Part shown: positions 2,187-56,896 of the stretch, piece by piece
How positions within the stretch are numbered: the first letter of the stretch is position 1
Layout: each line of letters starts with the position of its first letter
Origin: Escherichia virus TH15
Sequence record: MT446392.1
Length of the DNA: 64,000 nt
Direction: 5' to 3' (one strand)
Notes under the pieces: generated by a model
Databases searched by the model: none
The model's input: the letters and a program-made list of their open reading frames with translations, nothing else
Told to the model about the DNA's origin: nothing
Translations under genes and position numbers: made by a program

Positions 2187-2205
2187 AATATTTCTTCAAA
2201 AAGTA

Positions 2206-2235
2206 GTGTACATCCGGATTGACCGGGTGCATAAT
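2206..2235 (+). promoter_or_regulatory. T4-type early promoter
   Basis: -35 GTGTACA, 17-nt spacer, -10 CATAAT; A-rich upstream. Confidence 0.6.
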
Positions 2236-2285
2236 GATTCCATACTGAGTTACACACTGAATCACAAAAACTTTGGAGAAATAAA

Positions 2286-2711
2286 ATGAACTTTCTGACC
2301 CTGACCTCTGCATTCTCTGTTACCCGCATCACTAACAAAATGGTTGCTGATGAAGTATGTGAAATCTGCATTCGTGAAGATGCACTTATCCATCTGACTT
2401 CAACCCAAATTGTTGCCATCGCCAAGTCCCTTAATTCTGAACTGAAGGTAAACACCAAACAGTCAAAAGAATCCATCATTGAATTAATCCAAGCTGAAAT
2501 GATTGAATTCCCAATTGAAGAAGTTAAAGAAGAAAAAATCCAGTCCAAATCTGGTAACGCCCGTGACATTTGCTTCCAGGCATTTGCAGAAATTGATATG
2601 AATGATAATGCAGCTCGTCGCGCTCTGATTGATGACCTGGTTACTACCCATGATATCAAAAAGACTGTTGTTCAGTCTTATGCTTCCAACTTCCGCAAAG
2701 CTCAAAAATAA
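2286..2711 (+). CDS. hypothetical protein (paralog of 2795..3238)
   Basis: 141 aa; C-terminal NxAARRALID...VQSYASNFRK shared with next gene. Confidence 0.6.
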   Translation: MNFLTLTSAFSVTRITNKMVADEVCEICIREDALIHLTSTQIVAIAKSLNSELKVNTKQSKESIIELIQAEMIEFPIEEVKEEKIQSKSGNARDICFQAFAEIDMNDNAARRALIDDLVTTHDIKKTVVQSYASNFRKAQK

Positions 2712-2722
2712 TTGAGAAAAGT

Positions 2723-2752
2723 GTTTTACTTCCAAGTGGGATAGTGTATAAT
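2723..2752 (+). promoter_or_regulatory. T4-type early promoter
   Basis: -35 GTTTTACT, -10 TATAAT, followed by conserved leader. Confidence 0.55.
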
Positions 2753-2794
2753 TATCCCATACTGAGTTACCAAATAAACAAACGGGATAATAAA

Positions 2795-3238
2795 ATGAAA
2801 ACTTCAAAACTGGTTAAGTACGTTAAACTGGCATTAAACAACTCTTCTGAAGCTGAAGCGCAATCCGCAGCGCGTATGTTCTTCAAACGTCTGACAGCTG
2901 AAGGTATTTCATTTAACCCGGCAGTATTTGGTATCACTCGTGGCGAAGCTGCTAAACTGGCAACTCTGGCAGGTAAAATTTTTAAAGGTCTGAATGATGG
3001 ACAGGTTAAACCAGAAGTTAAACCTACTCCTAAAGCTGAACCAAAAGCTGAGTGTAAGGCACCTAAACGCTCCGGTATGAGCAACAAAGATTTATGCTAT
3101 GATATGTTCAAAACTGTTAATATGTCTAATGGTGCTGCTCGCAGAGCTGTTATTGATATGATTGTGCGTGAGTTTGGATTCAACAAAGCATCAGTTCAAT
3201 CTTATGCTTCCAACTTCCGCAAAGAATTTGAAATTTAA
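2795..3238 (+). CDS. hypothetical protein (paralog of 2286..2711)
   Basis: ATG at 2795 after GGGATAATAAA; track ATG 2744 lies inside promoter. Confidence 0.6.
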   Translation: MKTSKLVKYVKLALNNSSEAEAQSAARMFFKRLTAEGISFNPAVFGITRGEAAKLATLAGKIFKGLNDGQVKPEVKPTPKAEPKAECKAPKRSGMSNKDLCYDMFKTVNMSNGAARRAVIDMIVREFGFNKASVQSYASNFRKEFEI

Positions 3239-3245
3239 TTCAAAA

Positions 3246-3265
3246 AGGGGGTATACAAGCCCCCT
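3246..3265 (+). terminator. GC hairpin (terminator-like) containing a promoter -35
   Basis: Stem AGGGGG/CCCCCT, 8-nt loop holding GTATACA. Confidence 0.5.
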
Positions 3266-3280
3266 GCTTTAAGGCATAAT
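3251..3280 (+). promoter_or_regulatory. T4-type early promoter embedded in hairpin
   Basis: -35 GTATACA in hairpin loop, 17-nt spacer, -10 CATAAT. Confidence 0.55.
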
Positions 3281-3319
3281 GATTCCATACTGAGTTACCA
3301 AATAAAACTGGAGAATAAA

Positions 3320-3625
3320 ATGAAATTCATCATCAACCTGGCGCTTGTTGACTTTGATAAAACTGGTAATTTCGCATCTGCTGAAAATATGATTCGCAAC
3401 ACTAAGTTCAAAGTGCAAGTCCAGCAGGCGGTAGCAAAAGAGTTCTTTACTGATAAATTAACCCACGTTGTCAATCACCTGAATGTGCAAGTTAAATTCA
3501 CTCGTAAAGCAGAAACTACAGTTGAATTTGATTTTGAATGTCGTTACCATGATGAATATGTTCGCCGCATCCTTAATATTGTATCTGATGAACTTTACTA
3601 TGGTGTGCAGGAAAACAAAATCTAA
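3320..3625 (+). CDS. hypothetical protein
   Basis: 101-aa ORF with GGAGAATAAA SD. Confidence 0.55.
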   Translation: MKFIINLALVDFDKTGNFASAENMIRNTKFKVQVQQAVAKEFFTDKLTHVVNHLNVQVKFTRKAETTVEFDFECRYHDEYVRRILNIVSDELYYGVQENKI

Positions 3626-3629
3626 ATCA

Positions 3630-3659
3630 GTGTACGCTTTAACGGGAACATGATAGTAT
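3630..3659 (+). promoter_or_regulatory. possible early promoter
   Basis: -35 GTGTACG, 17-nt spacer, weak -10 TAGTAT; overlaps 8-bp inverted repeat GGGAACAT/ATGTTCCC. Confidence 0.35.
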
Positions 3660-3701
3660 GTTCCCTGGATAATAAAACATTAACCAACTGAAGGAAATAC
3701 C

Positions 3702-4295
3702 ATGAATACTTTAAAGAAACTTGTTGAATTCATCCGCTCCAAACTGGGTACTGCAATGGCACAAAACCTGTCTATTGAAGACCAATATACTAAAGCGGCA
3801 ACAACCCTGATTGACAAGATTACTGAGCTCCAGACTGCCCACGTTAAGTCTGTTAATGAAGAAAAACGCATCCGCGAGTTAGCGAATGAAAAAGACCAGC
3901 TCGCTGCTTCAAAAGAGCGTGAAATCCGTAAACTGATTGCTGATGGTGCTGATGTTCAGGTCCATGCTAAACTAGGTCTCCTGTATCGCCACACGGCTAA
4001 ACAACTTCGTAAGAAGGCAGATGATTATGTTGAAATGCGTAATGAAATTAAATTGAAAGTTAAAGAGCTGGATGATTCTCGTCAGGAACTAGCTGTTAAA
4101 CTGGAATACATCCGCGAAACTCGTAAGGTATCTGCCCTGGGTATTGCGACTGCAGATGATGTTGTTGAAATCGCTGCATTGACTAAGATTGATATTGAAG
4201 ACACTCTGATGCGTGTTGAAACCTTCAAAGGCCCACAGGTTGGTGTGGATACCACATCCGCTGACATTGAAGAATACATCAATTCACTTAAGTAA
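3702..4295 (+). CDS. hypothetical coiled-coil protein
   Basis: 197 aa, charged heptad-rich sequence, AAGGAAA SD. Confidence 0.6.
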
Positions 4296-6821: not shown

Positions 6822-6865
6822 AATTATCACAAGGATGTGATAGGAGGACTTATGCACAAGATTTA

Positions 6866-6895
6866 GTATACAAGTCTAAAGAAACATAGTATCAT
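6866..6895 (+). promoter_or_regulatory. T4-type early promoter
   Basis: -35 GTATACA, 17-nt spacer, -10 TATCAT. Confidence 0.5.
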
Positions 6896-6923
6896 TATCT
6901 CGTCAACTAATGAGGAAATCAAT

Positions 6924-7154
6924 ATGTGGTATTACGCCCCAATGGCTGATGAGCCTGTGAAAATTAGTCGCGCTAAGTTTACAAAGATTTACGGCCTCGT
7001 TTATAAGAAGTCTGATTACGGTGTTCGTTTTGAAGATGCACACTGTATCAACGACCCTTATAATGAAGACCTCTATGGCAAATTGGTTCCTATCGTTAAG
7101 GGGTCCGCCTCTGAGATGATAGATGAATCTAATATCTCTGCTGCTGAAATTTAA
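6924..7154 (+). CDS. hypothetical protein
   Basis: 76-aa ORF after TGAGGAAA SD. Confidence 0.5.
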   Translation: MWYYAPMADEPVKISRAKFTKIYGLVYKKSDYGVRFEDAHCINDPYNEDLYGKLVPIVKGSASEMIDESNISAAEI

Positions 7155-7172: not shown

Positions 7173-8132
7173 ATGATGTTAGTTATTGGCTCTCGCGCAT
7201 TACATAACGCCGGTCTGATTGAAAGTAAGAAAATTGAAAACTCTGATTGGGATTTTATCGCTGACCAGGGTTCCTGGAACAGCTTTAAAACCCAGATGAT
7301 GGGGCAGCATGTTCATGTGGATAACCCAGATGTGCAAGCTTTTAAATGTATGCACAATGGTAAAGAAACTTATTTTGAAGCGTACATCGTCCGCGCACTG
7401 ACAAGTGTTCGTGAGTTGACTGATGAGTTGCAAGAGGAAGATTTTACTTCCAGTTATCGTCTGCTCAAATATGCAAAGGCAAATATTCAGAAAGACCGTC
7501 TATCTGGTTTTTACTGGGCGACCCCTGATATTTGTCTGGCAATTAAATTGTCTCATCGTTACCTGAAGAACAATCCATTCTTCCTGAAGACAATGAGCCA
7601 TATTAATTACCTTCGTAATAAGGGTGTTGTTCTTAATGATGAACTACAAAAAATCATGCAACAACGACAGGCAGAAACACTGTCATATAGTCACCCTAAA
7701 CTAGACGTGGGCAAGAAAACTTTCTTTAATGATACAATCTATACCCTTGACCATGACTCCATCCACGAGGCCGTGGCGCTTGCTGATAAGCCTGCATATA
7801 AGTTCTATATGAAGGATGATTCAGAAGTCATGACCTCACGTGAAAAATTTGAAGCACTCCCTGATGTTATTAAACTGGCAGGGGTTTATGAAGAAGCATG
7901 TGTGCTCGCTCTGGAGCGTTCGCAGGTTCCTAACGAGTTTAGTATCCCGGCCAGTCATAGCTTCCATATGGCTCTGGAAAAAGTCTGCACCTCCATTACT
8001 TCTGGATGGTTTCGTGAGTATGCCTGGGAACATTACCAGGATGTGGTTAATATGTACAACACCCTGGGTCGCGAAGACTATGTTAAACGTTTCAAGGCTA
8101 ACCAGCATTTAATTCGTCCTTTTTCAAAATAA
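7173..8132 (+). CDS. hypothetical protein with possible nucleotidyltransferase-fold motif
   Basis: 319 aa; N-terminal IGSRALH...SDWDF resembles GS...DxD. Confidence 0.6.
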   Translation: MMLVIGSRALHNAGLIESKKIENSDWDFIADQGSWNSFKTQMMGQHVHVDNPDVQAFKCMHNGKETYFEAYIVRALTSVRELTDELQEEDFTSSYRLLKYAKANIQKDRLSGFYWATPDICLAIKLSHRYLKNNPFFLKTMSHINYLRNKGVVLNDELQKIMQQRQAETLSYSHPKLDVGKKTFFNDTIYTLDHDSIHEAVALADKPAYKFYMKDDSEVMTSREKFEALPDVIKLAGVYEEACVLALERSQVPNEFSIPASHSFHMALEKVCTSITSGWFREYAWEHYQDVVNMYNTLGREDYVKRFKANQHLIRPFSK

Positions 8133-8134
8133 GT

Positions 8135-8164
8135 GTGTACAACCAAATGGGGCTATGACATAAT
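8135..8164 (+). promoter_or_regulatory. T4-type early promoter
   Basis: -35 GTGTACA, 17-nt spacer, -10 CATAAT. Confidence 0.6.
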
Positions 8165-8191
8165 GGTCCCACAATCAATGAGGAAAATATT

Positions 8192-8878
8192 ATGAACGGT
8201 CCTAAAACTTTTAATAGTCAAGCTCGTGCAGTTGGTGGTTTTGCACATAACGTACAAAATGACCAAATCAAAAATGAACCAATGTTCTTTAACTGTGATT
8301 TGAGTTTTGCTTGGGATAATGGTGGTCCAATCACTCGTAGCTTTATTGCCAATCTCCCAATTGATTGGACTAATCAACATGTTGTGTTTGATTCACGTGC
8401 GCATATGTTAATGCCAGGTTGGTATCCAGCTATCCCTGGCTATCATCATGATGATGTTCCTCGTCCACCCATTCCAACAGGACAACATTTTATTACTGCA
8501 GGACAACCTGATTATGACAATCCTCGCTATTTGTCTGAACACATTCTTGGTCTTGTTAACGCTGATGTGTGCCCTACCCATTTTGCTACAGGCGAAGCCA
8601 CCTTTAGTGAAATCCCAGAAGGTGAACTGATTTATCGCCAATGGCATAAAGAAGTTCTGGCTAAAATTGAATCAGGTGAATTAGAGCAATGGGAAGCTCC
8701 TGACCGCACACTCCTGCAGTTTAATTGTCATACCTGGCATACTGGTTCCCAGACAGTGCGCAATGGCTGGCGTTGGTTTGGTCGTGTATCTCGTAACACT
8801 GACCGTGTTAAAAATATTACCAATGAAATCCGCGTTAATGCCCAAGTATATCTGGAATTCCCTATGGAGGGATGGTAA
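8192..8878 (+). CDS. hypothetical protein
   Basis: 228-aa ORF after TGAGGAAAA SD. Confidence 0.6.
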   Translation: MNGPKTFNSQARAVGGFAHNVQNDQIKNEPMFFNCDLSFAWDNGGPITRSFIANLPIDWTNQHVVFDSRAHMLMPGWYPAIPGYHHDDVPRPPIPTGQHFITAGQPDYDNPRYLSEHILGLVNADVCPTHFATGEATFSEIPEGELIYRQWHKEVLAKIESGELEQWEAPDRTLLQFNCHTWHTGSQTVRNGWRWFGRVSRNTDRVKNITNEIRVNAQVYLEFPMEGW

Positions 8879-10904: not shown

Positions 10905-11361
10905 AGGTTGTAAATTAGATTTGTATAAAGATACCGAGGGGTACTATACCATTGGTATCGGGCAACTGATAACTAAGAACCCATCGAAAGATGTTGCTCG
11001 TGCCGAGCTCGACAAGCTCATGGGTCGCGTCTGTAATGGTCGCATAACCCAGCACGAAGCTGAAACATTGTTTAACCGTTCGGTCGAAAAAGCTAAAGCC
11101 GGAATATTGAGGCATCCTGTCTTAAAACCTGTTTATGATGTACTGGATGAAGTTCGTCGTTGTGCACTCATTAATATGGTATTCCAGATGGGTGTTGCCG
11201 GGGTTGCTGGTTTTCCTAAGGGACTGCGATTGCTCAAGGCCAAATCGTGGGAAGCTGCTGCTAAGGAACTGGCGGACTCAAGATGGTATAAAGTCCAGAC
11301 TCCAAACCGGGCCAAACGAGTTATTGAAACTTTCCGTACTGGAACTTTTGACGCTTATTAG
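10873..11361 (+). CDS. e: lysozyme (T4 gene e endolysin)
   Basis: Near-identity in N-terminal [12 protein letters not shown]...[13 protein letters not shown] to T4 lysozyme. Confidence 0.95.
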
Positions 11362-11390
11362 TTTACATCTCCAAACGATAGGGTTATAAT
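11361..11390 (+). promoter_or_regulatory. T4-type early promoter
   Basis: -35 GTTTACA, 17-nt spacer, -10 TATAAT. Confidence 0.65.
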
Positions 11391-11416
11391 GACCCTATCA
11401 ACTACGGAGAACAAAC

Positions 11417-11833
11417 ATGACTCGCATTAATTTAACCCTGGTATCTGAACTTGCTGACCAACACCTTATGGCTGAATACCGCGAGCTTCCTCGCGTGTTT
11501 GGTGCTGTTCGTAAGCATGTGCAAAATGGTAAAAAGGTGTCTGACTTTAAAATCCCATCATCTTTTCTTTTAGGAACTGGTCATGTCACCTTCTTTTATG
11601 ATAAGCTTTTGTTCCTTAAAAACCGTCATCAAGAACTTATTGCTGAATGTTTAAAGCGAGGGTTTAATATAAAAGATATTTCTACCCAAGATTTAAATGA
11701 TATTCCTGATGAATGGAAGAATGATTATCAACCATCAATCTGGTCAATTGAAATCAGTCAATCCAGACTGAATGAGAAAATTTCTCAAAAGCCTACCTGG
11801 TACAAATACTATGGGAAAGCTGTGTACGCTTAA
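11417..11833 (+). CDS. denV: pyrimidine dimer DNA glycosylase (endonuclease V)
   Basis: [34 protein letters not shown] matches T4 DenV. Confidence 0.95.
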
Positions 11834-11851
11834 CTAAAAAGGTTGTATAAT
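11822..11851 (+). promoter_or_regulatory. T4-type early promoter
   Basis: -35 GTGTACG, 17-nt spacer, -10 TATAAT. Confidence 0.65.
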
Positions 11852-11881
11852 GATTTTATCAACCAAACAATGGAATATAAA

Positions 11882-12145
11882 ATGAAAACTTATCAAGAAT
11901 TTATTACTGAATCTGCCAAAGCTCCTGCTGGTTCCTTTAAAGTCCGTGCCTTCGCTGGTGATGCTGAAGACTTTGGCTCACTGAAGCGCAACGGTTATTC
12001 TTTCTTTGGTGGTGATGGTAAAGAAATTGTTACCTATGCAAAACGTCGCGAAATCGCATTCGTGGTTGCTGGTAAGAAAGTATCCCCAGAAGATATTGAA
12101 GTTGACTTTGAGACCTTTGGTATTGTTTCTGGCGGTAAAGCTTAA
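11882..12145 (+). CDS. internal-protein-like (capsid targeting sequence)
   Basis: Starts MKTYQEFITE, matching the T4 internal-protein capsid targeting sequence MKTYQEFIAE. Confidence 0.6.
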   Translation: MKTYQEFITESAKAPAGSFKVRAFAGDAEDFGSLKRNGYSFFGGDGKEIVTYAKRREIAFVVAGKKVSPEDIEVDFETFGIVSGGKA

Positions 12146-14008: not shown

Positions 14009-14313
14009 TGGCGCAGATTAATTCTGGTTTTGGTTATGAGTTATCAACCGCTTCTCATCGCCGCATAAATGATTCCAATCCGTTTGGATTCACATCGAAA
14101 CAGCCAAAAATTCAAAGTCTAGACGATTTCCAGGAAGTTATTCGTAAGGCCTTTCAGGACTACGGGAACTATCTTAAAGAAGATTCAAACGACTGTCTTG
14201 AAGAAGATGAAATTGCTTACTACGAGCAACGCCTTGAACAGCTTAAGAATTTGCACGCTGTTCGTGCCGAAGTCTCACAATCATTAAATAAGCTAATTCG
14301 TTTTAAAGAATAG
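14008..14313 (+). CDS. hypothetical protein
   Basis: ATG 14008 after GAGGAAAAA SD. Confidence 0.5.
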
Positions 14314-14342
14314 TGTACAAGCAGGTTGAAATGAGTTATGAT
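14314..14342 (+). promoter_or_regulatory. T4-type early promoter
   Basis: -35 GTGTACA, 16-nt spacer, -10 TATGAT. Confidence 0.5.
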
Positions 14343-14369
14343 TATCCCATCAAACAAAAGGAGATAATC

Positions 14370-14828
14370 ATGACTACTATCGATTCAAGTGTTTACATTC
14401 GCCGCAATAAACTTCGTCGTATTTTTGAAACGGAGTTCCTCAAAATTAATAATGCTATCAACAAGGCTTGTAAAGAAGCAGGCCTTGAAGCATTCTTCAT
14501 TAAGTACAGTCCACACCTGTTGGACCGTGCAATCCAACGTGAAATTGACGAACAATATGTTTTTGACTTGTTTGGAAAAATCACACCACATGTAAAAGAA
14601 ATTGTTGAATTCCTGGAGATGAAACCACTCCCGGAAGTTGAAGCACAAATTGACCCGAATGTGAACTACCGTCCACTTCGTCTGGAAATCACAGACAAGA
14701 ACCTATGGTTAGGAATGACAGTTAACCCAGCTCTTCCTGGGAAGTCTCCAACCATGTGTTGTCGTATGGCGTTTGTTAACTCTAATCGTCTGGAAGGAAA
14801 AATTAGCACAAAAGTGATTTATATCTAA
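14370..14828 (+). CDS. regB: RegB endoribonuclease
   Basis: MTTIDSSVYIRRNKLRRIFETEF...HLLDRAIQREIDE matches T4 RegB; ATG 14370 after AAGGAG. Confidence 0.85.
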   Translation: MTTIDSSVYIRRNKLRRIFETEFLKINNAINKACKEAGLEAFFIKYSPHLLDRAIQREIDEQYVFDLFGKITPHVKEIVEFLEMKPLPEVEAQIDPNVNYRPLRLEITDKNLWLGMTVNPALPGKSPTMCCRMAFVNSNRLEGKISTKVIYI

Positions 14829-18216: not shown

Positions 18217-18225
18217 CATTTAGGG

Positions 18226-18255
18226 GTTTACATCCTCATAAAAAGGGTGTACTAT
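18226..18255 (+). promoter_or_regulatory. T4-type early promoter
   Basis: -35 GTTTACA, 17-nt spacer, -10 TACTAT. Confidence 0.5.
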
Positions 18256-18283
18256 TATCCCATCAACTACTGAGGAGAACACA

Positions 18284-18487
18284 ATGAGAATTAAAAATAT
18301 CAAGATTGATGCAGTTAATACTGGTGATGAGGTTGTTATCTATCTTAATGATTATGCAATCTTTATGGACAGTGCCACTGATGAAGAAGTGGTTGAACTC
18401 TTACAGAAAGCTCCATTTGAACTGTGTGAAGAAGATGCTACTCATCTTTCATCAGCAATTTTCTCATTATCATATGTGGTGGAATAA
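18284..18487 (+). CDS. hypothetical protein
   Basis: 67-aa ORF after CTGAGGAG leader. Confidence 0.5.
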   Translation: MRIKNIKIDAVNTGDEVVIYLNDYAIFMDSATDEEVVELLQKAPFELCEEDATHLSSAIFSLSYVVE

Positions 18488-21540: not shown

Positions 21541-21552
21541 TTTTAAAAAGTA

Positions 21553-21582
21553 GTGTACAACAAGATGGTCATGAGGCATAAT
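21553..21582 (+). promoter_or_regulatory. T4-type early promoter
   Basis: -35 GTGTACA, 17-nt spacer, -10 CATAAT. Confidence 0.6.
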
Positions 21583-21622
21583 GATTCCATACTGAGTTAC
21601 CAAATAAAAACGGGAGAATAAA

Positions 21623-21829
21623 ATGTTAGAATTAATCAAAGCTGCTGGTGAAAAAGGTCTGATGGTTAACACTCGTGACCCTGAACAACGTCAAGCATTT
21701 GGTGAGTTAAAAGCCAAAGGTCTGGTTAAAGCATCCCTTGGTATTGGTAATGCTTTGCGTGTGACTTTGACCCCTGCAGGTAAAGCAATGTTCTTCCCTA
21801 AACCATTACCAAAACGTCGTCGCAAGTGA
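21623..21829 (+). CDS. hypothetical basic protein
   Basis: 68 aa, C-terminal KRRRK. Confidence 0.5.
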   Translation: MLELIKAAGEKGLMVNTRDPEQRQAFGELKAKGLVKASLGIGNALRVTLTPAGKAMFFPKPLPKRRRK

Positions 21830-21835: not shown

Positions 21836-22138
21836 ATGAAAAAGTATGAAATTGACATGATTGATGCATGTCTTAAATCTGCTGACCATTTTAAGTTGAA
21901 AATGCACAAGTTAAGAGGAATGGTCAAAACTCCAGAAGAGAAGAAACGTTATGCTCTGAAGGAGAAATGTAAAGCTCTTATCATGATGGATAAGATGCAA
22001 ATGGTCGCCGCAGAAGCCCACAGGACAAGAAAAGCAGAGGCCCTTGGTGTTTATATGGCTGAACAGATTCATCGCGCACAGCAAGCCGTTAAGAGCGCCT
22101 GGTTCAGTGGCAGTGATGGTGAAAGAACTTTTAATTAA
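21836..22138 (+). CDS. hypothetical protein
   Basis: 100-aa ORF after GAGGAA. Confidence 0.5.
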   Translation: MKKYEIDMIDACLKSADHFKLKMHKLRGMVKTPEEKKRYALKEKCKALIMMDKMQMVAAEAHRTRKAEALGVYMAEQIHRAQQAVKSAWFSGSDGERTFN

Positions 22139-22140
22139 AT

Positions 22141-22170
22141 GTGTACACCAGTATGGGAGCGTGACATAAT
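22141..22170 (+). promoter_or_regulatory. T4-type early promoter
   Basis: -35 GTGTACA, 17-nt spacer, -10 CATAAT. Confidence 0.6.
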
Positions 22171-22208
22171 GTTCCTATACTGAGTTACCAAACAAACGGG
22201 AGAATAAA

Positions 22209-22733
22209 ATGGAAGCCAAATCAATCTTTAATCTGATTAATTACAATAATGGTAATTTTAAATCAGAAGCACAAAGCAAGTTCTTTAATGATGTTGCTTG
22301 TGCAGGTGAGATTACAGTATCAGGCGGTCAAACTTATAAAAACGCCTGGAACTGGATTGTAAATGTTGATTCAGTTGGTATTGTTGATGTGTATAAAAAC
22401 ACCAACAAAAACCGCTCTTTGTTCTGGTCAAGAGAGACTAATGCTGAGTATCAGGCAACAAGAGCAAAGAAAAATATGCCTACTGAATCTGATGTACAGA
22501 ACATCAAATCAGATATCCAATATTATGATGGTCTGATTGCTGAACAACAAGCAGTGCTTGATAAGTTCAATGAAATCAAAGCATGTAAAGAGATTCCTGA
22601 ATTCATGAGGGAATCAGTTAATGAACAATACAATCTCACTTCAGAGCGTATTGAAACCTATACCAAACAAAGAGCAGAGCGCCAGGTACTCCTTCAGAAG
22701 TTTGAAGAGCGTTTAAAGACGGTTCTCGCATAA
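22209..22733 (+). CDS. hypothetical protein
   Basis: 174-aa ORF. Confidence 0.6.
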   Translation: MEAKSIFNLINYNNGNFKSEAQSKFFNDVACAGEITVSGGQTYKNAWNWIVNVDSVGIVDVYKNTNKNRSLFWSRETNAEYQATRAKKNMPTESDVQNIKSDIQYYDGLIAEQQAVLDKFNEIKACKEIPEFMRESVNEQYNLTSERIETYTKQRAERQVLLQKFEERLKTVLA

Positions 22734-23947: not shown

Positions 23948-24847
23948 ATGAAAATTAAAACTCGCGCTGAATATGCTAGTAGTTATGAACCACATGACGG
24001 TCGTGTGACTCGTCTTATCGCAATGAATTCTTTGGTTAACTTTGGCAAAATCAAATCAGGTTCTGCTACCCAGGGGTATGGTCAACGTATTGTAAGAATT
24101 AACTCTCTGAATGATTACTGCCGCCGCCCAGCGTTTTTGTTTGGTGCCACGGTTCGTAAGAGTATCAAGGAAATTCTGGCCGGCGGATTTCGTATTCGCA
24201 AAGCTCCGGTTAACATCAAGAACTATAATTTTAACTCTGACAACTTGATTATCAATATCAAGAATGATGGTGTACAGATTAAGTTCAAACCAACTACCAA
24301 GGGCGATGTTGCTCTTTGTCATAACTTTAAAGAGGTTATGGGTATTGCGCTGTTTTATATGCGCCATGCTGTTGAATCGTACACGTTTGATGAAGATACA
24401 AATTATATCCACCAAACGGAAAAATTCCTCAAAACTATAGTCATTGATATTAAATTAACTAAAGAATATCTTTTGTCTTATGCTCCTTATCAAGAGAAAA
24501 ATGAACCAGAAGAGGAAAAGGAACCAGAAATGGAACGTATCCCTACCGCATCATATGGCCCAGCATTTGCAGGTCAGTTTAAATCTTACGACCAGACTAA
24601 AATTTCACCACTGGAAGTTAAAAATATGTATCAATGGAAAATCCAGCCAAACAGCTCTCTTGAAATCTTTAACCCACCAATGAAGCCTATTGAGAGCTAT
24701 CATGCTGATGCTATCCGGGAATCAGTTAACCGCTTAAATGGTCTGATTGAAGATGAGAAAAAGGGTATCCAGGATGTTCTGAATCGCATCAAGAATATGG
24801 AAAAACAACGCAATAAATTGCAAGCGGCAATCAAAGCATTAAAATAA
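23948..24847 (+). CDS. hypothetical protein
   Basis: ATG 23948 just after upstream stop; 299 aa. Confidence 0.65.
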   Translation: MKIKTRAEYASSYEPHDGRVTRLIAMNSLVNFGKIKSGSATQGYGQRIVRINSLNDYCRRPAFLFGATVRKSIKEILAGGFRIRKAPVNIKNYNFNSDNLIINIKNDGVQIKFKPTTKGDVALCHNFKEVMGIALFYMRHAVESYTFDEDTNYIHQTEKFLKTIVIDIKLTKEYLLSYAPYQEKNEPEEEKEPEMERIPTASYGPAFAGQFKSYDQTKISPLEVKNMYQWKIQPNSSLEIFNPPMKPIESYHADAIRESVNRLNGLIEDEKKGIQDVLNRIKNMEKQRNKLQAAIKALK

Positions 24848-24848
24848 T

Positions 24849-24878
24849 GTTTACTTCCAAGGATGGAGGGAGTATAAT
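24849..24878 (+). promoter_or_regulatory. T4-type early promoter
   Basis: -35 GTTTACT, 17-nt spacer, -10 TATAAT. Confidence 0.6.
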
Positions 24879-24905
24879 GAATTCCTACTTTATGAGGAGA
24901 ACACT

Positions 24906-25898
24906 ATGACACGTAATGAATATATCCAGGCCTTTAACTCAACTATCGACACAAAAGTAAAACCATTAATAGGTGAATCGGCTATCCTTTTAATTATCAA
25001 TTTCTGGTTAAATCAGATTGACTCGACAATTGTTGCATCTGGACGCTTCAAGAAAGACATTGCAACTATTGCGAGTCGTGCTGGTAACGATGATATCAAG
25101 AAAACTTTTAAAAGTTCCCGAGTCCTGGCATACCTGGTTAATAAAGACCTTCTTAACAAGTTTGGTGTTGAATCCAGACGTGGTAAAGGTACAATTGGAT
25201 ATCATTGGTTTGGCGATGTTGAAAAATACTATCTTGATAAACAAGGCTATACTGCTTCTGAATTCGCAAATTGTTGGGCTCGTGAATTCAGAGATAACAA
25301 AATGTCTATCATCAAATCAGCGACAAAATTGATGGGTGGTGATTTTCGCACTATCTCCCATTTGGCTGAGCACATGATAAATGTTAAAGATTCTGGTGAA
25401 AACCAGGTAATTATTGCAGTTAAGTATGAATTCTTTACGCCAGTGGCTACTCCAGAAAATGTCAAAAAGTACCTTGATGTTGCCTGTACGCTTACTCATC
25501 AGCTGCAGTGTGCACTTAATTATATGCGCACTGTTGAAAAAATTAAAGTAGACCCTATCACCAGTGCTCATGGTTGGAAAGGTTGGAAAATTGTGGTGAC
25601 ATTACGCGAAGTTAAATGTGCAAAGCAACCAACTGTTGCAGAAATCTATAAAAAGAAAAGTGAGGAAATTATGAATGCTCCGCATGAAGTTACTACCCTT
25701 GAAGACCTGATTGATAACCTGAATAATGAGCCAGTGAAACAAAAAGCGCCTGAAATTGTTGCCCTGGAAACAGCGTATAATGAAGCTCTTGCTGTTAATA
25801 AAAAGGCAACTGAAGACTATACAAAAGCCAAGCGACTTTGGGAAGAATCAACCAATCGTCTGGATAAACTGGAACAGGCTCTGGAGCTGTTGAAATGA
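24906..25898 (+). CDS. hypothetical protein
   Basis: 330-aa ORF after TGAGGAGAA. Confidence 0.65.
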   Translation: MTRNEYIQAFNSTIDTKVKPLIGESAILLIINFWLNQIDSTIVASGRFKKDIATIASRAGNDDIKKTFKSSRVLAYLVNKDLLNKFGVESRRGKGTIGYHWFGDVEKYYLDKQGYTASEFANCWAREFRDNKMSIIKSATKLMGGDFRTISHLAEHMINVKDSGENQVIIAVKYEFFTPVATPENVKKYLDVACTLTHQLQCALNYMRTVEKIKVDPITSAHGWKGWKIVVTLREVKCAKQPTVAEIYKKKSEEIMNAPHEVTTLEDLIDNLNNEPVKQKAPEIVALETAYNEALAVNKKATEDYTKAKRLWEESTNRLDKLEQALELLK

Positions 25899-27195: not shown

Positions 27196-27311
27196 GCCAT
27201 GGTATACCGCTCGATGGGAAACTGTCGAGCCAGAGGAACCGGTTTACAACGGTTTCGAAACAGAGTATAATGAACCTTCAAACAATGATTTAATCGATAT
27301 GGAGTTTGGAT

Positions 27312-27485
27312 ATGAGTACCAAAATTGAAGTTGGCCGTCACAAAGGCCGTTTAATTGAACATTCTCTTTACGAGTTGTCGGATTCTCGTAAGTTACCTGA
27401 TGAAGAATCTGCTTTAATTTTTGCCGCGGCAGATTATATTCATTGGCTTGAAGCCCAACTTCGCTTTTCTGATGAGGTCTTTTAA
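27312..27485 (+). CDS. hypothetical small protein (57 aa)
   Basis: GGAG SD; TAATG junction to next gene. Confidence 0.35.
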   Translation: MSTKIEVGRHKGRLIEHSLYELSDSRKLPDEESALIFAAADYIHWLEAQLRFSDEVF

Positions 27486-29693: not shown

Positions 29694-29991
29694 GATTGAA
29701 ATCTATGGTATCCCCGAAGAAGTCGGTCGATGCCCTGGTTGTATGCACGTCAGGAGCCTTCTGGGCTCCTTAAACCTTCCTTATACATTCTATTCAGTCC
29801 TTAACAAACAAGGCTCTGAAATCGCTTATGACAGGCCATTAATCGTGTCTTTGGCTAAGCGTGCTGGATATCCTACCCTTAACATTCGTTACCCAGTGAT
29901 TTTTGTCAATGATGAAAAAATGACCAATATTCCTGCCTTTAAAACAAAACTGATATCCCTGGGGTATGACCAGGACTTAATTGAAGATTAA
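29674..29991 (+). CDS. thioredoxin/glutaredoxin-like protein
   Basis: CPGC motif after first beta-strand; GTG start preceded by AAGGAG. Confidence 0.5.
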   Translation: MGQNSTKIEIYGIPEEVGRCPGCMHVRSLLGSLNLPYTFYSVLNKQGSEIAYDRPLIVSLAKRAGYPTLNIRYPVIFVNDEKMTNIPAFKTKLISLGYDQDLIED

Positions 29992-30013
29992 AAAGGGGTG
30001 TACAAGCCCCTTT
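29992..30013 (+). terminator. GC hairpin (terminator-like) containing a promoter -35
   Basis: Stem AAAGGGG/CCCCTTT with GTGTACA in loop. Confidence 0.5.
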
Positions 30014-30027
30014 GAATGATGTATCAT
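29998..30027 (+). promoter_or_regulatory. T4-type early promoter embedded in hairpin
   Basis: -35 GTGTACA, 17-nt spacer, -10 TATCAT. Confidence 0.5.
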
Positions 30028-30058
30028 TATCCCATCAACTACTGATGAGGAAAACAAA

Positions 30059-30241
30059 ATGGTTATTCAAGATAAAGAAATTAAAGTTGACCGGTATTAT
30101 TCTGTAAATGGCTATCCTGTACAGGTAACCAAAGTGACTGACCAAGATGTATGGTATCGTCCTTTGAAATGGCCTGATGCTCCGTTGATGGTGTGTGACC
30201 GTAGCTTGTTCAATACAGTTGCAAAAGGACCTAAATTATGA
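30059..30241 (+). CDS. hypothetical protein
   Basis: 60-aa ORF after TGAGGAAAA. Confidence 0.45.
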   Translation: MVIQDKEIKVDRYYSVNGYPVQVTKVTDQDVWYRPLKWPDAPLMVCDRSLFNTVAKGPKL

Positions 30242-44210: not shown

Positions 44211-45375
44211 TTATAATGCTGATTTTACAGAAGAACAAATCGAATACTTAAAAACTTTGTCTAAAGATGAATTGGAACACCATTTATACAATTCTCAAAT
44301 GGCTGAAGTAGCTGCAAACACCGCGCAGATTAACCGTAAACTGCTTATCAATAGCTGTTATGGTGCTCTGGGCAATATCTGGTTCCGTTACTTTGACCTG
44401 CGAAATGCAACTGCGATTACATCTTTCGGGCAACTTGCATTGCAGTGGATTGAGCGTAAAGTTAACGAATACTTCGATAGTGTTTGTGGTACAAGTGGTG
44501 AGACTTACGTATTCTATGGCGATACTGACTCCATTTATATCCAGTGCGATAACCTGATTAAAAAGGTTGGTGGTGAATCTAAATTCCGCGATACAAACCA
44601 CCTGGTTGACTTCATGGACAAGTTTGCAAAAGACCGTCTGGAACCGGCAATTGATAAAGCTTTCCGTGAACTGGCCGAATACATGAACAATAAACAGCAC
44701 CTTATGTTTATGGACCGTGAAGCGATTGCATGTCCTCCGCTGGGTTCTAAAGGCGTGGGTGGATTCTGGACGGCGAAGAAGCGTTATGCGTTGAACGTGT
44801 ATGATATGGAAGGCACACGATATGCTGTTCCGAAACTGAAAATTATGGGTCTGGAAACTCAAAAGTCGAGCACTCCAAAAGCATGTCAGAAAGCTCTGAA
44901 AGAATGTATCCGTCGCATGCTGCAAGAAGGTGAAGAATCTCTGCAGACATACTTCAAGGAATTCAATAAGGAATTTAATGAGCTTAACTACATGACCATC
45001 GCAGGTGTATCATCGGTTAACAACATCCAGAAATATAATGAGGGCGGTTTCCCTGGATTTAAGTGCCCGGCTCATATCAAAGGTGTGCTTGCATATATGC
45101 GTGCAACTAAAGGGCTGAAGACTGTTCCGCAAATCATGGAAGGGGAAAAGGTGTATGTGCTTCCTCTTAAAGTTGGTAATCCGTTTGGCGAAACCGTGAT
45201 TGCGTGGCCATCAGGGATTGAACTCCCGATTGAAATTCGTGACCAAGTCTTGCAGTGGATGGACTACAACACACTGTTCCAGAAGACTTTTGTTAAGCCA
45301 TTGACAGGGTTCTCTGAAGCAGCTAAGGTTGATTACGAGAAAAAAGCATCTCTTTTTGATATGTTTGATTTTTAA
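44200..45375 (+). CDS. 43: DNA polymerase gp43, C-terminal fragment
   Basis: 391 aa: pol motif B KLLINSCYGALG and motif C YGDTDS; 507+391=898 aa, the length I recall for T4 gp43. Confidence 0.9.
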   Translation: MNIDYNADFTEEQIEYLKTLSKDELEHHLYNSQMAEVAANTAQINRKLLINSCYGALGNIWFRYFDLRNATAITSFGQLALQWIERKVNEYFDSVCGTSGETYVFYGDTDSIYIQCDNLIKKVGGESKFRDTNHLVDFMDKFAKDRLEPAIDKAFRELAEYMNNKQHLMFMDREAIACPPLGSKGVGGFWTAKKRYALNVYDMEGTRYAVPKLKIMGLETQKSSTPKACQKALKECIRRMLQEGEESLQTYFKEFNKEFNELNYMTIAGVSSVNNIQKYNEGGFPGFKCPAHIKGVLAYMRATKGLKTVPQIMEGEKVYVLPLKVGNPFGETVIAWPSGIELPIEIRDQVLQWMDYNTLFQKTFVKPLTGFSEAAKVDYEKKASLFDMFDF

Positions 45376-45377
45376 GT

Positions 45378-45407
45378 GTTTACAATGGCAAAGGATTGCC
45401 GTATGAT
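45378..45407 (+). promoter_or_regulatory. T4-type early promoter
   Basis: -35 GTTTACA, 17-nt spacer, -10 TATGAT. Confidence 0.5.
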
Positions 45408-45447
45408 TACTCCATCAATTACTGATGATTAACTTAAGGATATTAAA

Positions 45448-45690
45448 ATGGAAACATTAATTGCGGGTACTGTTGTTCTTGGTGCTGGTTCTTTCTTCTT
45501 GGCTGCACTGACCTATTTTCTACCGTGGATTATCGCGCTACTGCGTGGAACCAAAAGTAATTGCGGAATCTTCTTTGTTAACCTTCTGTTAGGTTGGACA
45601 ATGGTTGGGTGGTTTATTGCGTTTATTTGGGCACTCGTTGCTGAACGTAAATCAAACGCACAGTTAATTATCATCAAGGAAACCAAATGA
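45448..45690 (+). CDS. imm: small membrane protein, Imm-like
   Basis: 80 aa, two TM helices, adjacent to 43 as T4 imm; not sequence-verified. Confidence 0.45.
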   Translation: METLIAGTVVLGAGSFFLAALTYFLPWIIALLRGTKSNCGIFFVNLLLGWTMVGWFIAFIWALVAERKSNAQLIIIKETK

Positions 45691-49366: not shown

Positions 49367-49374
49367 AATATTTT

Positions 49375-49397
49375 AAAAGGGGCTTACAGCCCCTTTT
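49375..49397 (+). terminator. terminator hairpin containing a promoter -35
   Basis: Stem AAAAGGGG/CCCCTTTT, loop CTTACAG. Confidence 0.6.
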
Positions 49398-49411
49398 TCT
49401 TATGTTATAAT
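49383..49411 (+). promoter_or_regulatory. T4-type early promoter embedded in terminator hairpin
   Basis: -35 CTTACA in loop, 17-nt spacer, -10 TATAAT. Confidence 0.5.
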
Positions 49412-49437
49412 GACCCTATCAACTACTGGAGAATAAA

Positions 49438-49755
49438 ATGAAAACTATTGATTGCAAAGCGGAATACAAAGTTTATTATCATGGCTCAAGCTCTAATGCT
49501 GGAATCCAAAATATGCTTTGCCCTCCTGATGCAACTGGTGTTCTGTCAGAAGTTGGGCGCAAGAAAAATTTAGGGCGTGTGTTTTTTACTGAAGATATTG
49601 GTTTGGCACGTATCTATGCAGGAAGAGCAGCTCGTTCAGTGGGAGGAGAACCCCGTCTTTATCGTGTGATTGCACCTGTTGATGTGGTTTGTTTAAATGA
49701 TACTAAAGGCGCAACAGTTTATCACGCAGACTGGGCGTTTTGTGAGGAAATCTAA
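49438..49755 (+). CDS. hypothetical protein
   Basis: 105 aa; ends EEI with GAGGAAATCTAA forming SD of next gene. Confidence 0.55.
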   Translation: MKTIDCKAEYKVYYHGSSSNAGIQNMLCPPDATGVLSEVGRKKNLGRVFFTEDIGLARIYAGRAARSVGGEPRLYRVIAPVDVVCLNDTKGATVYHADWAFCEEI

Positions 49756-50310: not shown

Positions 50311-50340
50311 GTGTACAACAAAGGGATAATGCAGTATATT
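50311..50340 (+). promoter_or_regulatory. T4-type early promoter
   Basis: -35 GTGTACA, 17-nt spacer, -10 TATATT; flanked by 9-bp inverted repeat AGGGATAAT/ATTATCCCT. Confidence 0.5.
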
Positions 50341-50368
50341 ATCCCTATCAACTACTGAGGAGATTGAA

Positions 50369-56264: not shown

Positions 56265-56291
56265 GGCCTTTCTTACAACAGAGAGGCCATT

Positions 56292-56865: not shown

Positions 56866-56896
56866 GTTCCTATCAACTACTGATGAGGATAATAAA

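What the first reader, a model, noticed from the sequence alone, without database searches (positions are those of the whole stretch)
2236..2285. Two conserved 5' leader families on early transcripts, with GGAG at the ribosome-binding site
Directly after the -10 of many early promoters the sequence falls into two families. Family A, ...GATTCCATACTGAGTTACCAAATAAA..., occurs near 2236, 2753, 3281, 21583, 22171 and 57600. Family B, ...CC(C/T)ATCAACTACTGA(G/T)GAG..., occurs near 11391, 14343, 18256, 30028, 45408, 49412, 50341, 56866 and 60964. The leaders are therefore repeated modules, not only the promoters. Family B ends in GAGGAG/GGAG Shine-Dalgarno sequences; the window also encodes RegB (14370..14828), which in T4 cleaves early mRNAs at GGAG, so these are predicted RegB targets.
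Basis: partly seen in the sequence, partly recalled or inferred. Interest (0 to 1): 0.5.

Follow-up and report, generated by a model that had tools for sequence, protein, structure and literature searches.

The report
Conserved early-promoter leader cassettes, T4-type phage
The repeated sequences are real, but they are the known transcribed end of T4-type early promoter cassettes (start-site context, unstructured leader, ribosome site that often doubles as a RegB cut site), here in a Gaprivervirus genome, so the finding is mostly ordinary.

Summary
All 15 listed sites carry the stated motifs directly after a sigma-70-type -10 box, far above chance. I found 23 such promoters in the window, all on the + strand.

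The conserved block always starts at the 7th base after the -10 hexamer, while its distance to the ATG varies. Family B (ATCAACTACTGA...) is not special to this phage. The same start sequence follows early promoters in T4, JS98, RB69 and a Klebsiella Jiaodavirus. Family A (ATACTGAGTTACC...) is an expansion largely confined to Gaprivervirus, at 9-13 copies per genome.

The leaders are unstructured and match no Rfam family. RegB is present (Pfam E 4e-72).

The RegB reading is only partly right. The published RegB/S1 site (GGAGRAYARAA; T4 form GGAGAAUAAAA) is strongly enriched in early leaders, with at least 10 of 11 positions matched in 10/23 leaders against 0/116 internal start sites. However, it sits mainly in family A. 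Several family B members lack GGAG or resemble T4 sites shown to be RegB-resistant.

Many promoters also carry a covarying stem-loop around the -10 box, the PeSL-type feature. All components are published concepts. Verdict: a new member of a known kind, low-to-moderate interest.

The parts
2198..2288 (+). Early promoter cassette P2236, leader family A: -35 GTGTAC, -10 CATAAT, GATTCC, then ATACTGAGTTAC...TTTGGAGAAATAAAATG. It drives an ORFan at 2286-2711.
2715..2797 (+). Early promoter cassette P2753, leader family A. It has GGATAATAAAATG (GGAU plus a strict A-rich tract) and a 7-bp stem GGGATAG/TATCCC around the -10 box.
3243..3322 (+). Early promoter cassette P3281, leader family A. A GGGGG..CCCCC stem spans the -35 box. 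It carries an exact GGAGAATAAAA at 3310-3320.
3622..3704 (+). Promoter P3660 (e.6 orthologue), with overlapping -35 box and MotA box (GTGTACGCTTTA). It fits neither family. GGATAATAAAA lies at the 5' end of the leader. A 6-bp stem GGGAAC/GTTCCC surrounds the -10 box.
6858..6926 (+). Early promoter P6896, with a B-like leader GTCAACTAATGAGGAAATCAATATG.
8127..8194 (+). Early promoter P8165, leader ACAATCAATGAGGAAAATATTATG. It fits neither family.
11353..11419 (+). Early promoter P11391 (denV), leader family B: ATCAACTACGGAGAACAAACATG. An 8-bp stem GATAGGGT/ACCCTATC surrounds the -10 box. The GGAGAAC-type site is predicted to be a poor RegB substrate.
11814..11884 (+). Promoter P11852 (internal-protein gene), with a B-like leader ATCAACCAAACA and a MotA box overlapping the -35 box.
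14305..14372 (+). Early promoter P14343 (regB), a weak family B leader: ATCAAACAAAAGGAGATAATCATG.
14370..14828 (+). regB gene, encoding the endoribonuclease RegB.
   Evidence: PF10715, E 3.8e-72; VR26 annotation
18218..18286 (+). Early promoter P18256 (mobD.5 orthologue), leader family B: ATCAACTACTGAGGAGAACACAATG.
21545..21625 (+). Early promoter P21583, leader family A, with an exact GGAGAATAAAA at 21613-21623. Its promoter half differs between strains, which indicates a module swap.
22133..22211 (+). Early promoter P22171 (nrdC.8), leader family A, with an exact GGAGAATAAAA at 22199-22209. The T4, JS98 and RB69 orthologues of this gene carry leader B instead.
24841..24908 (+). Early promoter P24879, leader CTACTTTATGAGGAGAACACTATG. 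It fits neither family.
27234..27314 (+). Early promoter P27272 (49.1 region). Its leader is conserved with the JS98, RB69 and T4 orthologues and fits neither family.
29990..30061 (+). Early promoter P30028, leader family B: ATCAACTACTGATGAGGAAAACAAAATG, with no GGAG. A GGGG..CCCC stem spans the -35 box.
45370..45450 (+). Early promoter P45408 (imm), a long family B leader: ATCAATTACTGATGATTAACTTAAGGATATTAAAATG.
49374..49440 (+). Early promoter P49412, leader family B, with an exact GGAGAATAAAA at 49428-49438. A GGGGC..GCCCC stem spans the -35 box. An indel boundary against VR26 and SP18 lies here.
50303..50371 (+). Early promoter P50341 (sp), leader family B: ATCAACTACTGAGGAGATTGAAATG. A 9-bp inverted repeat AGGGATAAT/ATTATCCCT overlaps the -10 box.
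56227..56294 (+). Early promoter P56265 (modB region), in neither family. A 15-bp stem pairs the -10 box and discriminator with the SD-ATG region.
56828..56899 (+). Early promoter P56866 (modA), leader family B, with GGATAATAAAATG.
57562..57649 (+). Early promoter P57600 (srd). The leader starts like family A (GTACTGAGTTAT) and then continues as the srd-specific sequence CGTCCGTAAGATGAGAAAAATATC, which is shared with T4.
60926..60997 (+). Early promoter P60964, leader family B: ATCAACTACTGATGAGGAAAACAAAATG, with no GGAG.
62005..62087 (+). Early promoter P62043 (motB). The leader begins ACTGGAGAATAAAC, the orthologue of the T4 motB leader site that RegB cleaves efficiently. The stem around the -10 box shows compensatory changes between strains.

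Best explanation
The two 'leader families' are the transcribed ends of T-even-type early promoter cassettes. Each cassette has an A-rich upstream tract, a -35 box G(T/G)TTAC-like, a 17-bp spacer, a -10 box, a C-rich discriminator, a conserved start region, an unstructured leader, and an SD plus ATG.

The block from -6 to about +12 is tied to the promoter rather than to the start codon. It most likely acts at the level of E. coli RNA polymerase, in start-site selection, open-complex properties and promoter escape. This resembles the conserved downstream region of phage T5 early promoters. That step is inferred.

The rest of the leader is kept single-stranded and purine/A-rich. This gives a strong ribosome site. 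In about 8-10 cassettes it also provides the 11-nt RegB/S1 target GGA(G/U)AAUAAAA, so those early mRNAs can be inactivated by the phage's own RegB. The sequence match is shown; cleavage is inferred.

Family B is the ancestral T-even start region. Family A is a variant largely confined to Gaprivervirus that has spread to 9-13 promoters per genome. The spread probably occurred by cassette duplication and short-patch homologous recombination between cassettes, as in PeSL-type shuffling.
For: Fixed register: every exact ATCAACTAC (7) and ATACTGAGTTA (5) on the + strand starts 6 nt after a -10 hexamer, while the 5' UTR length ranges from 12 to 44 nt.

Information content: TCCC at -4..-1 carries 1.3-1.6 bits per position, against a null 99th percentile of 0.38.

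Cross-genus conservation:
- T4 trna.4 has TACTAT-TACCCT-ATCAACTACTGAGGAGAATAAAATG.
- The Jiaodavirus cef promoter is similar.
- ATCAA at +1 occurs in 7/28 T4, 7/17 JS98, 7/22 RB69 and 10/23 window early promoters, and in none of the pure MotA-box promoters.
- The discriminator differs by lineage.

Position-specific conservation: in family A the 17-nt spacers are unrelated, while -10 to +14 is invariant. The paralogous ORFs 2286 and 2795 are only 42% identical, yet keep the same leader.

Structure: the leaders are unstructured (MFE 0 to -2.9 kcal/mol, z +0.3 to +1.8), and Rfam gives only two tRNAs.

RegB: the gene is present. GGAKAATAAA gives 11 hits against 0.64 expected, 8 of them in early leaders. 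Enrichment against internal start regions has p 2e-9. The consensus comes from PMC1702504.

Module exchange: nrdC.8 has leader A here but leader B in T4, JS98 and RB69. The promoter half of P21583 in VR26 and SP18 equals that of P22171 in TH40 and SP18. An SP18 insertion at 49367 brings its own promoter plus leader B.

T5 PN25 and T7 A1 share the (T/C)C|AT start context followed by a GAG-rich stretch (sequences verified).
Against: - No transcription start, promoter strength or cleavage has been measured for this phage. The +1 position is assumed to be the 7th base after the -10 hexamer.
- No tool used here can separate an RNA polymerase-level role of +1..+12 from an mRNA 5'-end role.
- Indel endpoints are enriched in promoter modules only against a uniform null (12/62, p 0.0005). 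Against gene boundaries in general they are not enriched (p 0.16).
- Six of 23 promoters fit neither family.
- Several GGAG leaders resemble T4 sites that resist RegB.
- Similarity to the T5 and T7 start regions is short and could be coincidental.
Confidence: 0.7

Rival explanations
1. The conserved leaders are only homology patches left by, and used for, recombination between PeSL-type cassettes. On this view the sequence beyond the SD has no function of its own and is kept uniform by gene conversion.
For: - Promoter halves are swapped between P21583 and P22171 among strains.
- The leader family differs at the orthologous nrdC.8 gene between genera.
- An SP18 insertion at 49367 is flanked by two leader-B cassettes.
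- Eight modules carry an indel endpoint.
- Arbiol et al. mapped mini-circle crossovers between the -10 box and the SD/ATG (PMC2839356).
- Family A is 9-13 near-identical copies largely confined to one genus.
Against: - The same +1..+12 sequence persists in genera whose orthologous coding DNA is only 67-80% identical.
- Its register to the -10 box is invariant.
- Spacers next to it are not homogenised.
- Endpoints are not enriched against gene boundaries (p 0.16).
- Most large indels are homing-endonuclease genes.
Confidence: 0.15
2. The start-region block (-6 to +12) is a binding or recognition site for a phage or host factor that acts specifically on early promoters or early mRNA 5' ends. One candidate role is the still unexplained shut-off of early transcription.
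For: - The block is early-specific and absent from the MotA-box promoters of the window.
- It is conserved across five genera at a fixed register.
- The review PMC3014915 states that the mechanism of early promoter shut-down is not completely understood.
- The review PMC2988021 notes extra consensus regions in T4 early promoters of unknown role.
Against: - Only about a third to a half of early promoters carry it in any genome, so it cannot be required for a class-wide switch.
- No candidate factor was identified.
- The element overlaps what RNA polymerase itself contacts.
Confidence: 0.1
3. The leaders encode a structured RNA element: a 5' hairpin from the CTCATCA-ACTAC-TGATGAG palindrome, or a riboregulator that controls stability or translation.
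For: The family B variants with TGATGAG form a 4-7 bp palindrome.
Against: - The hairpin is worth only -1 to -2 kcal/mol.
- All eight leaders tested fold no better than shuffles (z +0.3 to +1.8).
- The TGAGGAG variants break the pairing.
- There is no Rfam match.
Confidence: 0.03

Closest known systems
T4 early promoters (extended 'uber' UP/-35/TGn/-10 promoters; reviews PMC2988021 and PMC1524935)
   Same: - They share the -35 box GTTTAC-like, 17-bp spacing, a -10 box and an A-rich upstream tract.
- They lie upstream of the same early genes (denV, regB, sp, motB, srd, imm).
- T4 itself carries ATCAACTACTGAGGAG after several of them.
- C residues at -3..-1 were already noted for RB69, RB49 and 44RR.
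   Different: - Here the -35 box is mostly GTGTAC and the discriminator is GATCCC-like rather than T4's ACAACT.
- The published logos I could read stop at the start site, so the +1..+12 block is not described there.
- Family A is largely confined to Gaprivervirus.
PeSL (promoter-early stem-loop) cassettes of RB49/phi1, PST/T4 and nt-1/KVP40 (PMC2839356, PMC4122927)
   Same: - The composite has the same parts: AT-rich tract, stem-loop, early promoter, SD, ATG.
- G-run/C-run stems span the -35 box at 3281, 30028 and 49412.
- Stems enclose the -10 box in about a third of promoters, with covariation.
- The cassettes sit next to ORFans and some indels.
- There is evidence of module exchange.
   Different: - The PeSL papers stress the stem-loop and the promoter, not a conserved transcribed block.
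- Enrichment of indel endpoints at the modules is not significant here against gene boundaries.
- No mini-circle data exist for this phage.
RegB/S1 target sites of T4 early mRNAs (GGAGRAYARAA; T4 form GGAGAAUAAAA; PMC1702504, PMC3014915)
   Same: - Exact GGAGAAUAAAA occurs at four SDs.
- GGAUAAUAAAA occurs at three sites.
- A motB leader site is orthologous to the classic T4 substrate.
[quoted passage not shown]
- The regB gene is present.
   Different: - Cleavage is untested in this genus.
- About half of the leaders lack a good site.
- Several resemble the RegB-resistant T4 denV and mobD.5 sites.
Conserved downstream (initially transcribed) region of strong coliphage promoters: T5 PN25 family and T7 A1. 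The literature is recalled from memory (Gentz and Bujard 1985; Kammerer et al. 1986); the sequences were verified.
   Same: - In both cases early promoters that must out-compete host promoters share sequence from the -10 box into +1..+20.
- They share the (T/C)C|AT start context and a GAG-rich stretch that contains the SD.
- The T5 promoter module is itself repeated 4-5 times per genome.
   Different: - The sequence identity is short: GATTC|ATA in T5 against GATTCC|ATA in family A, and CC|ATC in T7 A1 against CC|ATC in family B.
- No functional data exist for the T-even block.
- The phage groups are unrelated, so this is analogy, not homology.

Membership tests
T4-type early (sigma-70) promoter | A -35 box G(T/G)TTAC-like, a 16-18 bp spacer, a -10 box TAnnnT and an A-rich tract upstream | tested here: met
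   23 sites, all on the + strand and none on the - strand by position weight matrix. Information profile.
T4-type early (sigma-70) promoter | Position upstream of orthologues of T4 early genes, in the direction of transcription | tested here: met
   The denV, regB, sp, motB, srd, imm, nrdC.8 and e.6 promoters are orthologous to predicted T4 promoters.
T4-type early (sigma-70) promoter | Transcription immediately after infection without phage protein synthesis | not testable with these tools
   This needs RNA 5'-end mapping with chloramphenicol.
PeSL cassette | A stem-loop physically combined with the early promoter (across the -35 box, between the boxes, or across the -10 box) | tested here: met
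   Comparing a promoter's own spacer with its own downstream flank against other promoters' flanks gives duplex dG p 0.0004 (window) and 0.0002 (T4, JS98, RB69). MFE is -12.0 for own pairs against -9.8 for cross pairs, p 0.0002. Compensatory changes are seen at the e.6 and motB promoters. G/C-run stems span the -35 box at 3281, 30028 and 49412.
PeSL cassette | SD and start codon of the downstream gene at the 3' end of the element | tested here: met
   All 23 have an SD-like purine run and an ATG 12-44 nt after +1.
PeSL cassette | Preferential association with indels or ORFan shuffling | tested here: inconclusive
   12/62 endpoints fall in modules. This gives p 0.0005 against a uniform null but p 0.16 against gene boundaries. 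Individual module swaps are seen.
PeSL cassette | Recombination between cassettes that yields mini-circles | not testable with these tools
   This needs inverse PCR or long reads on infected cells or virions.
RegB/S1 target site | GGA(G/U) followed by the A-rich 7-mer (GGAGRAYARAA) | tested here: met
   An exact match occurs at 4 leaders. At least 10 of 11 positions match at 10/23 leaders against 0/116 internal start regions. GGAKAATAAA gives 11 hits against 0.64 expected. The feature is not met by 30028, 60964, 6896, 8165, 56265, 57600 and 11852.
RegB/S1 target site | A single-stranded target in an intergenic or translation-initiation region of an early transcript | tested here: met
   Leader folds are 0 to -2.9 kcal/mol with z above 0. 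The sites lie between +1 and the ATG.
RegB/S1 target site | regB-dependent cleavage between G and A | not testable with these tools
   This needs primer extension or 5'-OH RNA-seq, comparing wild type with a regB mutant.
T5 PN25-type downstream sequence region | A conserved block at a fixed distance downstream of the -10 box in a set of strong early promoters | tested here: met
   The offset is 6 nt in 12/12 exact core hits. The block is conserved in 4-5 genera.
T5 PN25-type downstream sequence region | The block changes promoter escape or output | not testable with these tools
   This needs in vitro abortive/productive transcription assays and reporter swaps.

The most novel reading that the evidence does not exclude
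The invariant -6..+12 block ((T/C)CC(C/T)|ATCAACTACTGA and its family A derivative) sits at a fixed register in early but not middle promoters of at least five Tevenvirinae genera. It may be a dedicated control element rather than a by-product of promoter strength. One possibility is that it is the target through which early promoters, or the 5' ends of early mRNAs, are recognised for the still unexplained early shut-off. Another is that it responds to Alt/ModA-modified RNA polymerase.
Probability: 0.1. Interest if true: 0.6.

Novelty: new member of a known kind. Interest (0 to 1): 0.25.

Why it matters
The finding gives a practical rule for annotating early promoters, transcription starts and likely RegB-controlled genes in Gaprivervirus and related phages.

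It also shows that a start-region block conserved across T-even genera is present. That block is not covered by the promoter logos I could read, which end at the start site.

It does not reveal a new mechanism. The promoter class, the cassette idea (PeSL) and the RegB site are all published. The one open point worth an experiment is what the +1..+12 block does.

Tried and rejected
- **5' hairpin from the CTCATCA-ACTAC-TGATGAG palindrome.** Rejected. It is worth -1 to -2 kcal/mol and is no better than shuffles.
- **Known RNA family.** None found. Rfam gives only two tRNAs.
- **Masking of the SD in read-through transcripts by pairing with the promoter's own RNA.** Clear single cases exist (denV 11391, regB 14343, P56265). 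As a general rule it is not supported: own against cross promoter gives p 0.8.
- **Indel endpoints concentrated at the modules.** True against a uniform null, but not against gene boundaries. Most large inserts are homing endonucleases.
- **Whole-module recent duplication as the reason for leader identity.** Rejected. The spacers are unrelated.
- **Literature search by the sequence strings.** It returned only unrelated primer hits.
- **The T4 genome review.** The PMC id I recalled for it (PMC150520) is not held in the library, and I did not look for the 1989 T4 promoter/RBS consensus paper. I therefore could not check whether the +1..+12 block is printed in either.
- **A chance ATCAATTACTGA at 38763.** It lies inside a coding region and is not a promoter.

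Full report
**What the window is.** The window is 39.4% G+C. It is 95-96% identical to Escherichia phages TH40 and VR26 and about 90% identical to Shigella phage SP18 (genus Gaprivervirus, Tevenvirinae). It covers the early region from the tRNA/internal-protein cluster through e, denV, regB, tk, nrdC, 49, 55, 46/47, 45-43, uvsX, 41, sp, 61, 56, modA/B, srd, dda, dexA and motB. All genes run on the + strand.

**Observation.**
- Family A gives 3 hits at up to 3 mismatches against 0 expected. Family B gives 8 hits against 0.04 expected.
- A weight matrix built from the promoter halves finds 24 sites on the + strand and none on the - strand. With a relaxed regular expression and inspection of intergenic gaps I settled on 23 early-type promoters.
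- The core words ATCAACTAC (7 exact copies) and ATACTGAGTTA (5 exact copies) occur on the + strand only at these promoters. Each starts exactly 6 nt after the -10 hexamer.
- The distance from the assumed +1 to the ATG ranges from 12 to 44 nt. The block is therefore anchored to the promoter, not to the start codon.
- In an ungapped alignment the discriminator TCCC (-4..-1) carries 1.3-1.6 bits per position. That is comparable to the -35 and -10 boxes, and the null 99th percentile is 0.38 bits.
- The 'two families' are a fair but incomplete description. There are six A members and about eleven B or B-like members, including 6896 and 11852, which were not listed. Six promoters fit neither family. 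A and B share (T/C)CC(C/T)|AT...ACTGA.

**It is not special to this phage.**
- T4 has TACTAT-TACCCT-ATCAACTACTGAGGAGAATAAAATG upstream of trna.4.
- T4 also has a short form (denV, sp, nrdC.8) and a long form, ATCAACTACTGATAC...TTGGAGAATAAAATG (e.8, imm, nrdC.10 region).
- A Klebsiella Jiaodavirus has TACTAT-TATCTT-ATCAACTACTGAGGAGAATAACATG upstream of cef.
- ATCAA at +1 occurs in 10/23 window, 7/28 T4, 7/17 JS98 and 7/22 RB69 predicted early promoters. At a fixed position a 5-mer is expected about 0.002 times per promoter.
- The pure MotA-box (middle) promoters of the window do not have it.
- The discriminator differs by lineage: ACAACT in T4, AGACCT/AGTCCT in JS98 and RB69, GATCCC-like here. 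The +1..+9 block is shared by all of them.
- Family A is largely confined to Gaprivervirus, at 9-13 places per genome, with only weak relatives in a few Morganella, Providencia and Dhakavirus-like phages.

**Selection or copying.**
- In family A the 17-nt spacers are unrelated, while -10 through +14 is invariant. The cassettes are therefore not recent whole copies.
- ORFs 2286-2711 and 2795-3238 are paralogues at 42% amino-acid identity, yet their leaders are identical at +1..+14.
- Both facts point to constraint, or to very short-patch conversion, confined to the start region.
- Modules are also exchanged. nrdC.8 has leader A here but leader B in T4, JS98 and RB69. In VR26 and SP18 the promoter half upstream of the 21623 gene is the variant that TH40 and SP18 carry upstream of nrdC.8.
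- A 724-bp SP18 insertion at 49367 starts with its own promoter plus leader B.
- Against three relatives, 12 of 62 distinct indel endpoints fall inside promoter modules. The uniform-null expectation is 3.5 (p 0.0005). Since 15% of gene starts have such a module, the excess over gene boundaries is not significant (p 0.16).
- Most large inserts are homing endonucleases.

**RNA level.** Eight leaders folded from +1 have MFE values of 0 to -2.9 kcal/mol and z-scores of +0.3 to +1.8, so they are no more structured than shuffles. Rfam finds only two tRNAs in the window. The palindrome in the TGATGAG variants is too weak to matter.

**RegB.**
- ORF 14370-14828 matches PF10715 with E 3.8e-72.
- Durand et al. 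(PMC1702504) define the RegB/S1 site as 11 single-stranded nucleotides, GGAGRAYARAA, with GGAGAAUAAAA as the T4 form. GGAU is cut well only before a strict A-rich tract, GGAA is cut very poorly, and C is absent at position 9.
- GGAGRAYARAA occurs 5 times in the window against 0.48 expected. Four are SDs of early leaders: 3310, 21613, 22199 and 49428.
- GGAKAATAAA occurs 11 times against 0.64 expected. Eight are in early leaders and one is in a middle-promoter leader.
- A match of at least 10 of 11 positions is found in 10/23 early leaders against 0/116 internal start regions (p 2e-9). GGAG alone is found in 12/23 against 10/116 (p 5.5e-6). The gene calls behind the internal set are approximate.
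- The strong sites sit mainly in family A and in the e.6 and motB leaders. The motB leader is orthologous to the classic T4 motB substrate.
- Within family B, only 49412 and 56866 have a strong site. 30028 and 60964 have GGAA. 11391 (denV), 18256 (mobD.5 orthologue) and 24879 have GGAGAAC, and the T4 denV and mobD.5 transcripts of that type are RegB-resistant in vivo.
- The RegB link is therefore real as a sequence prediction, but it is attached to the wrong family.

**Stem-loops.**
- The spacer just upstream of the -10 box tends to be complementary to the discriminator and first transcribed bases of the same promoter.
- Own against cross-promoter duplex energies differ with p 0.0004 (window) and 0.0002 (T4, JS98, RB69).
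- Own promoter-plus-leader RNAs fold at -12.0 against -9.8 kcal/mol for cross combinations (p 0.0002).
- The e.6 promoter keeps a 6-bp stem around the -10 box with different sequences in four genera: GGGAAC/GTTCCC, GAGGAC/GTCCTC, GAGAGC/GCTCTC and ATTAGA/TCTAAT.
- The motB promoter shows compensatory changes: GGGACC/GGTCCC in T4 and GGGGTC/GACCCC in TH40 and SP18.
- Three promoters have G-run/C-run stems across the -35 box (3281, 30028, 49412).
- This is the PeSL architecture of Arbiol et al. and Comeau et al..
- I tested whether these stems generally mask the SD in read-through RNA. They do in single cases, but not as a rule (p 0.8).

**Comparison with what is known.**
- The review PMC2988021 says that T4 early promoter alignments show extra regions of consensus beyond UP/-35/TGn/-10.
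- Nolan et al. note C at -3..-1 in RB69, RB49 and 44RR, but their logos end at the start site.
- PeSL figures align cassettes from the AT-rich tract to the SD and ATG.
- From memory, T5 early promoters share a conserved +1..+20 region that affects promoter clearance.
- The recalled PN25 and T7 A1 sequences match T5 and T7 at 100%. They show the same (T/C)C|AT start context followed by a GAG-rich stretch. This is an analogy only.
- I could not reach the older T4 promoter literature. The PMC id I recalled for the T4 genome review is not held, and I did not look for the 1989 consensus paper. A text search for the sequence strings found nothing relevant.

**Verdict.** The thing itself is the transcribed end of T-even early promoter cassettes, made of three parts:
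- a promoter-anchored start region;
- an unstructured leader with a strong SD;
- in roughly a third to a half of cases, a RegB/S1 site.

Family A is an expansion largely confined to Gaprivervirus. What the +1..+12 block does is inferred, not shown.

Noticed in passing
window 3622-3704 (P3660) and 62005-62087 (P62043); orthologues in L001/L002 (VR26), L007/L008 (TH40), L009/L010 (SP18), L011 (JS98), L012 (RB69), L005/L006 (T4): A short stem encloses the -10 hexamer and is kept by compensatory changes between genera. At e.6 the pairs are GGGAAC/GTTCCC, GAGGAC/GTCCTC, GAGAGC/GCTCTC and ATTAGA/TCTAAT. At motB they are GGGACC/GGTCCC and GGGGTC/GACCCC. Own-versus-cross promoter tests are significant in four genomes.
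   Followed up: yes
window 21545-21625 and 22133-22211: The promoter half (-35 box to discriminator) upstream of the 21623 gene in VR26 and SP18 is the variant found upstream of nrdC.8 in TH40 and SP18. In SP18 the two cassettes, 600 bp apart, are nearly identical over about 60 nt. This suggests conversion between neighbouring cassettes.
   Followed up: partly
window 2198-3625: Three promoter-leader-A-ORFan cassettes lie in tandem about 520 bp apart. ORFs 2286-2711 and 2795-3238 are paralogues (42% identity over the C-terminal 73 aa, ending ...SYASNFRK). None has a Pfam match.
   Followed up: partly
window 10149-10904, 27967-29043, 43512-44210: These genes are absent at these positions from one or more relatives and are homing endonucleases: HNH plus NUMOD3, SegE-like GIY-YIG, and GIY-YIG. 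The third lies between the two blocks that align to the relatives' DNA polymerase gene 43. They account for several indel breakpoints that are not at promoters.
   Followed up: partly
window 36785-37702 (- strand) and 38161-39048: Two further inserts relative to VR26, TH40 or SP18 have no convincing Pfam match. One is the only long ORF on the minus strand. The other sits between rpbA and gene 45, where VR26 annotates a putative DNA endonuclease.
   Followed up: no
window 3630-3660 and 11822-11852: The sequence GTGTACGCTTTA/GTGTACGCTTAA combines an early -35 box with a MotA-box-like GCTT core. These promoters may therefore fire in both early and middle modes.
   Followed up: no
window about 22735-22760, 31140-31165, 32050-32073, 33645-33671, 41935-41960, 46365-46390, 53530-53552, 54410-54434, 62630-62660: These are MotA-box (middle) promoter candidates. 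Their start regions lack ATCAACTAC. Several are followed by GGAG/GGAT plus an A-rich tract, for example AAGGATAATAAAAT at 31157 and GAGGAGAATA at 54450 and 62680.
   Followed up: partly
window 11882-12145 and 12175-12474: Neighbouring internal-protein-type genes share the first codons (ATGAAAACTTATCAAGAATTTAT...), the known capsid-targeting leader. An indel or replacement boundary against all three relatives lies just after it (11914-12180).
   Followed up: no
window 943-1013 and 1151-1223: Two tRNA genes lie on the + strand (Rfam 62.6 and 68.4 bits). The tRNA region (384-2182) is replaced or rearranged relative to VR26.
   Followed up: no
window 56227-56294: At P56265 a 15-bp perfect stem (-22 kcal/mol, z -6) pairs CATAATGGCCTTTCT (the -10 box plus discriminator and start) with AGAGAGGCCATTATG (SD and start codon). 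Only transcripts that start at this promoter would leave the ribosome site open.
   Followed up: partly
window 10132-10141: GGATAATAAA, a RegB-type site, lies just upstream of the HNH homing-endonuclease ORF at 10149, with no early promoter nearby.
   Followed up: no
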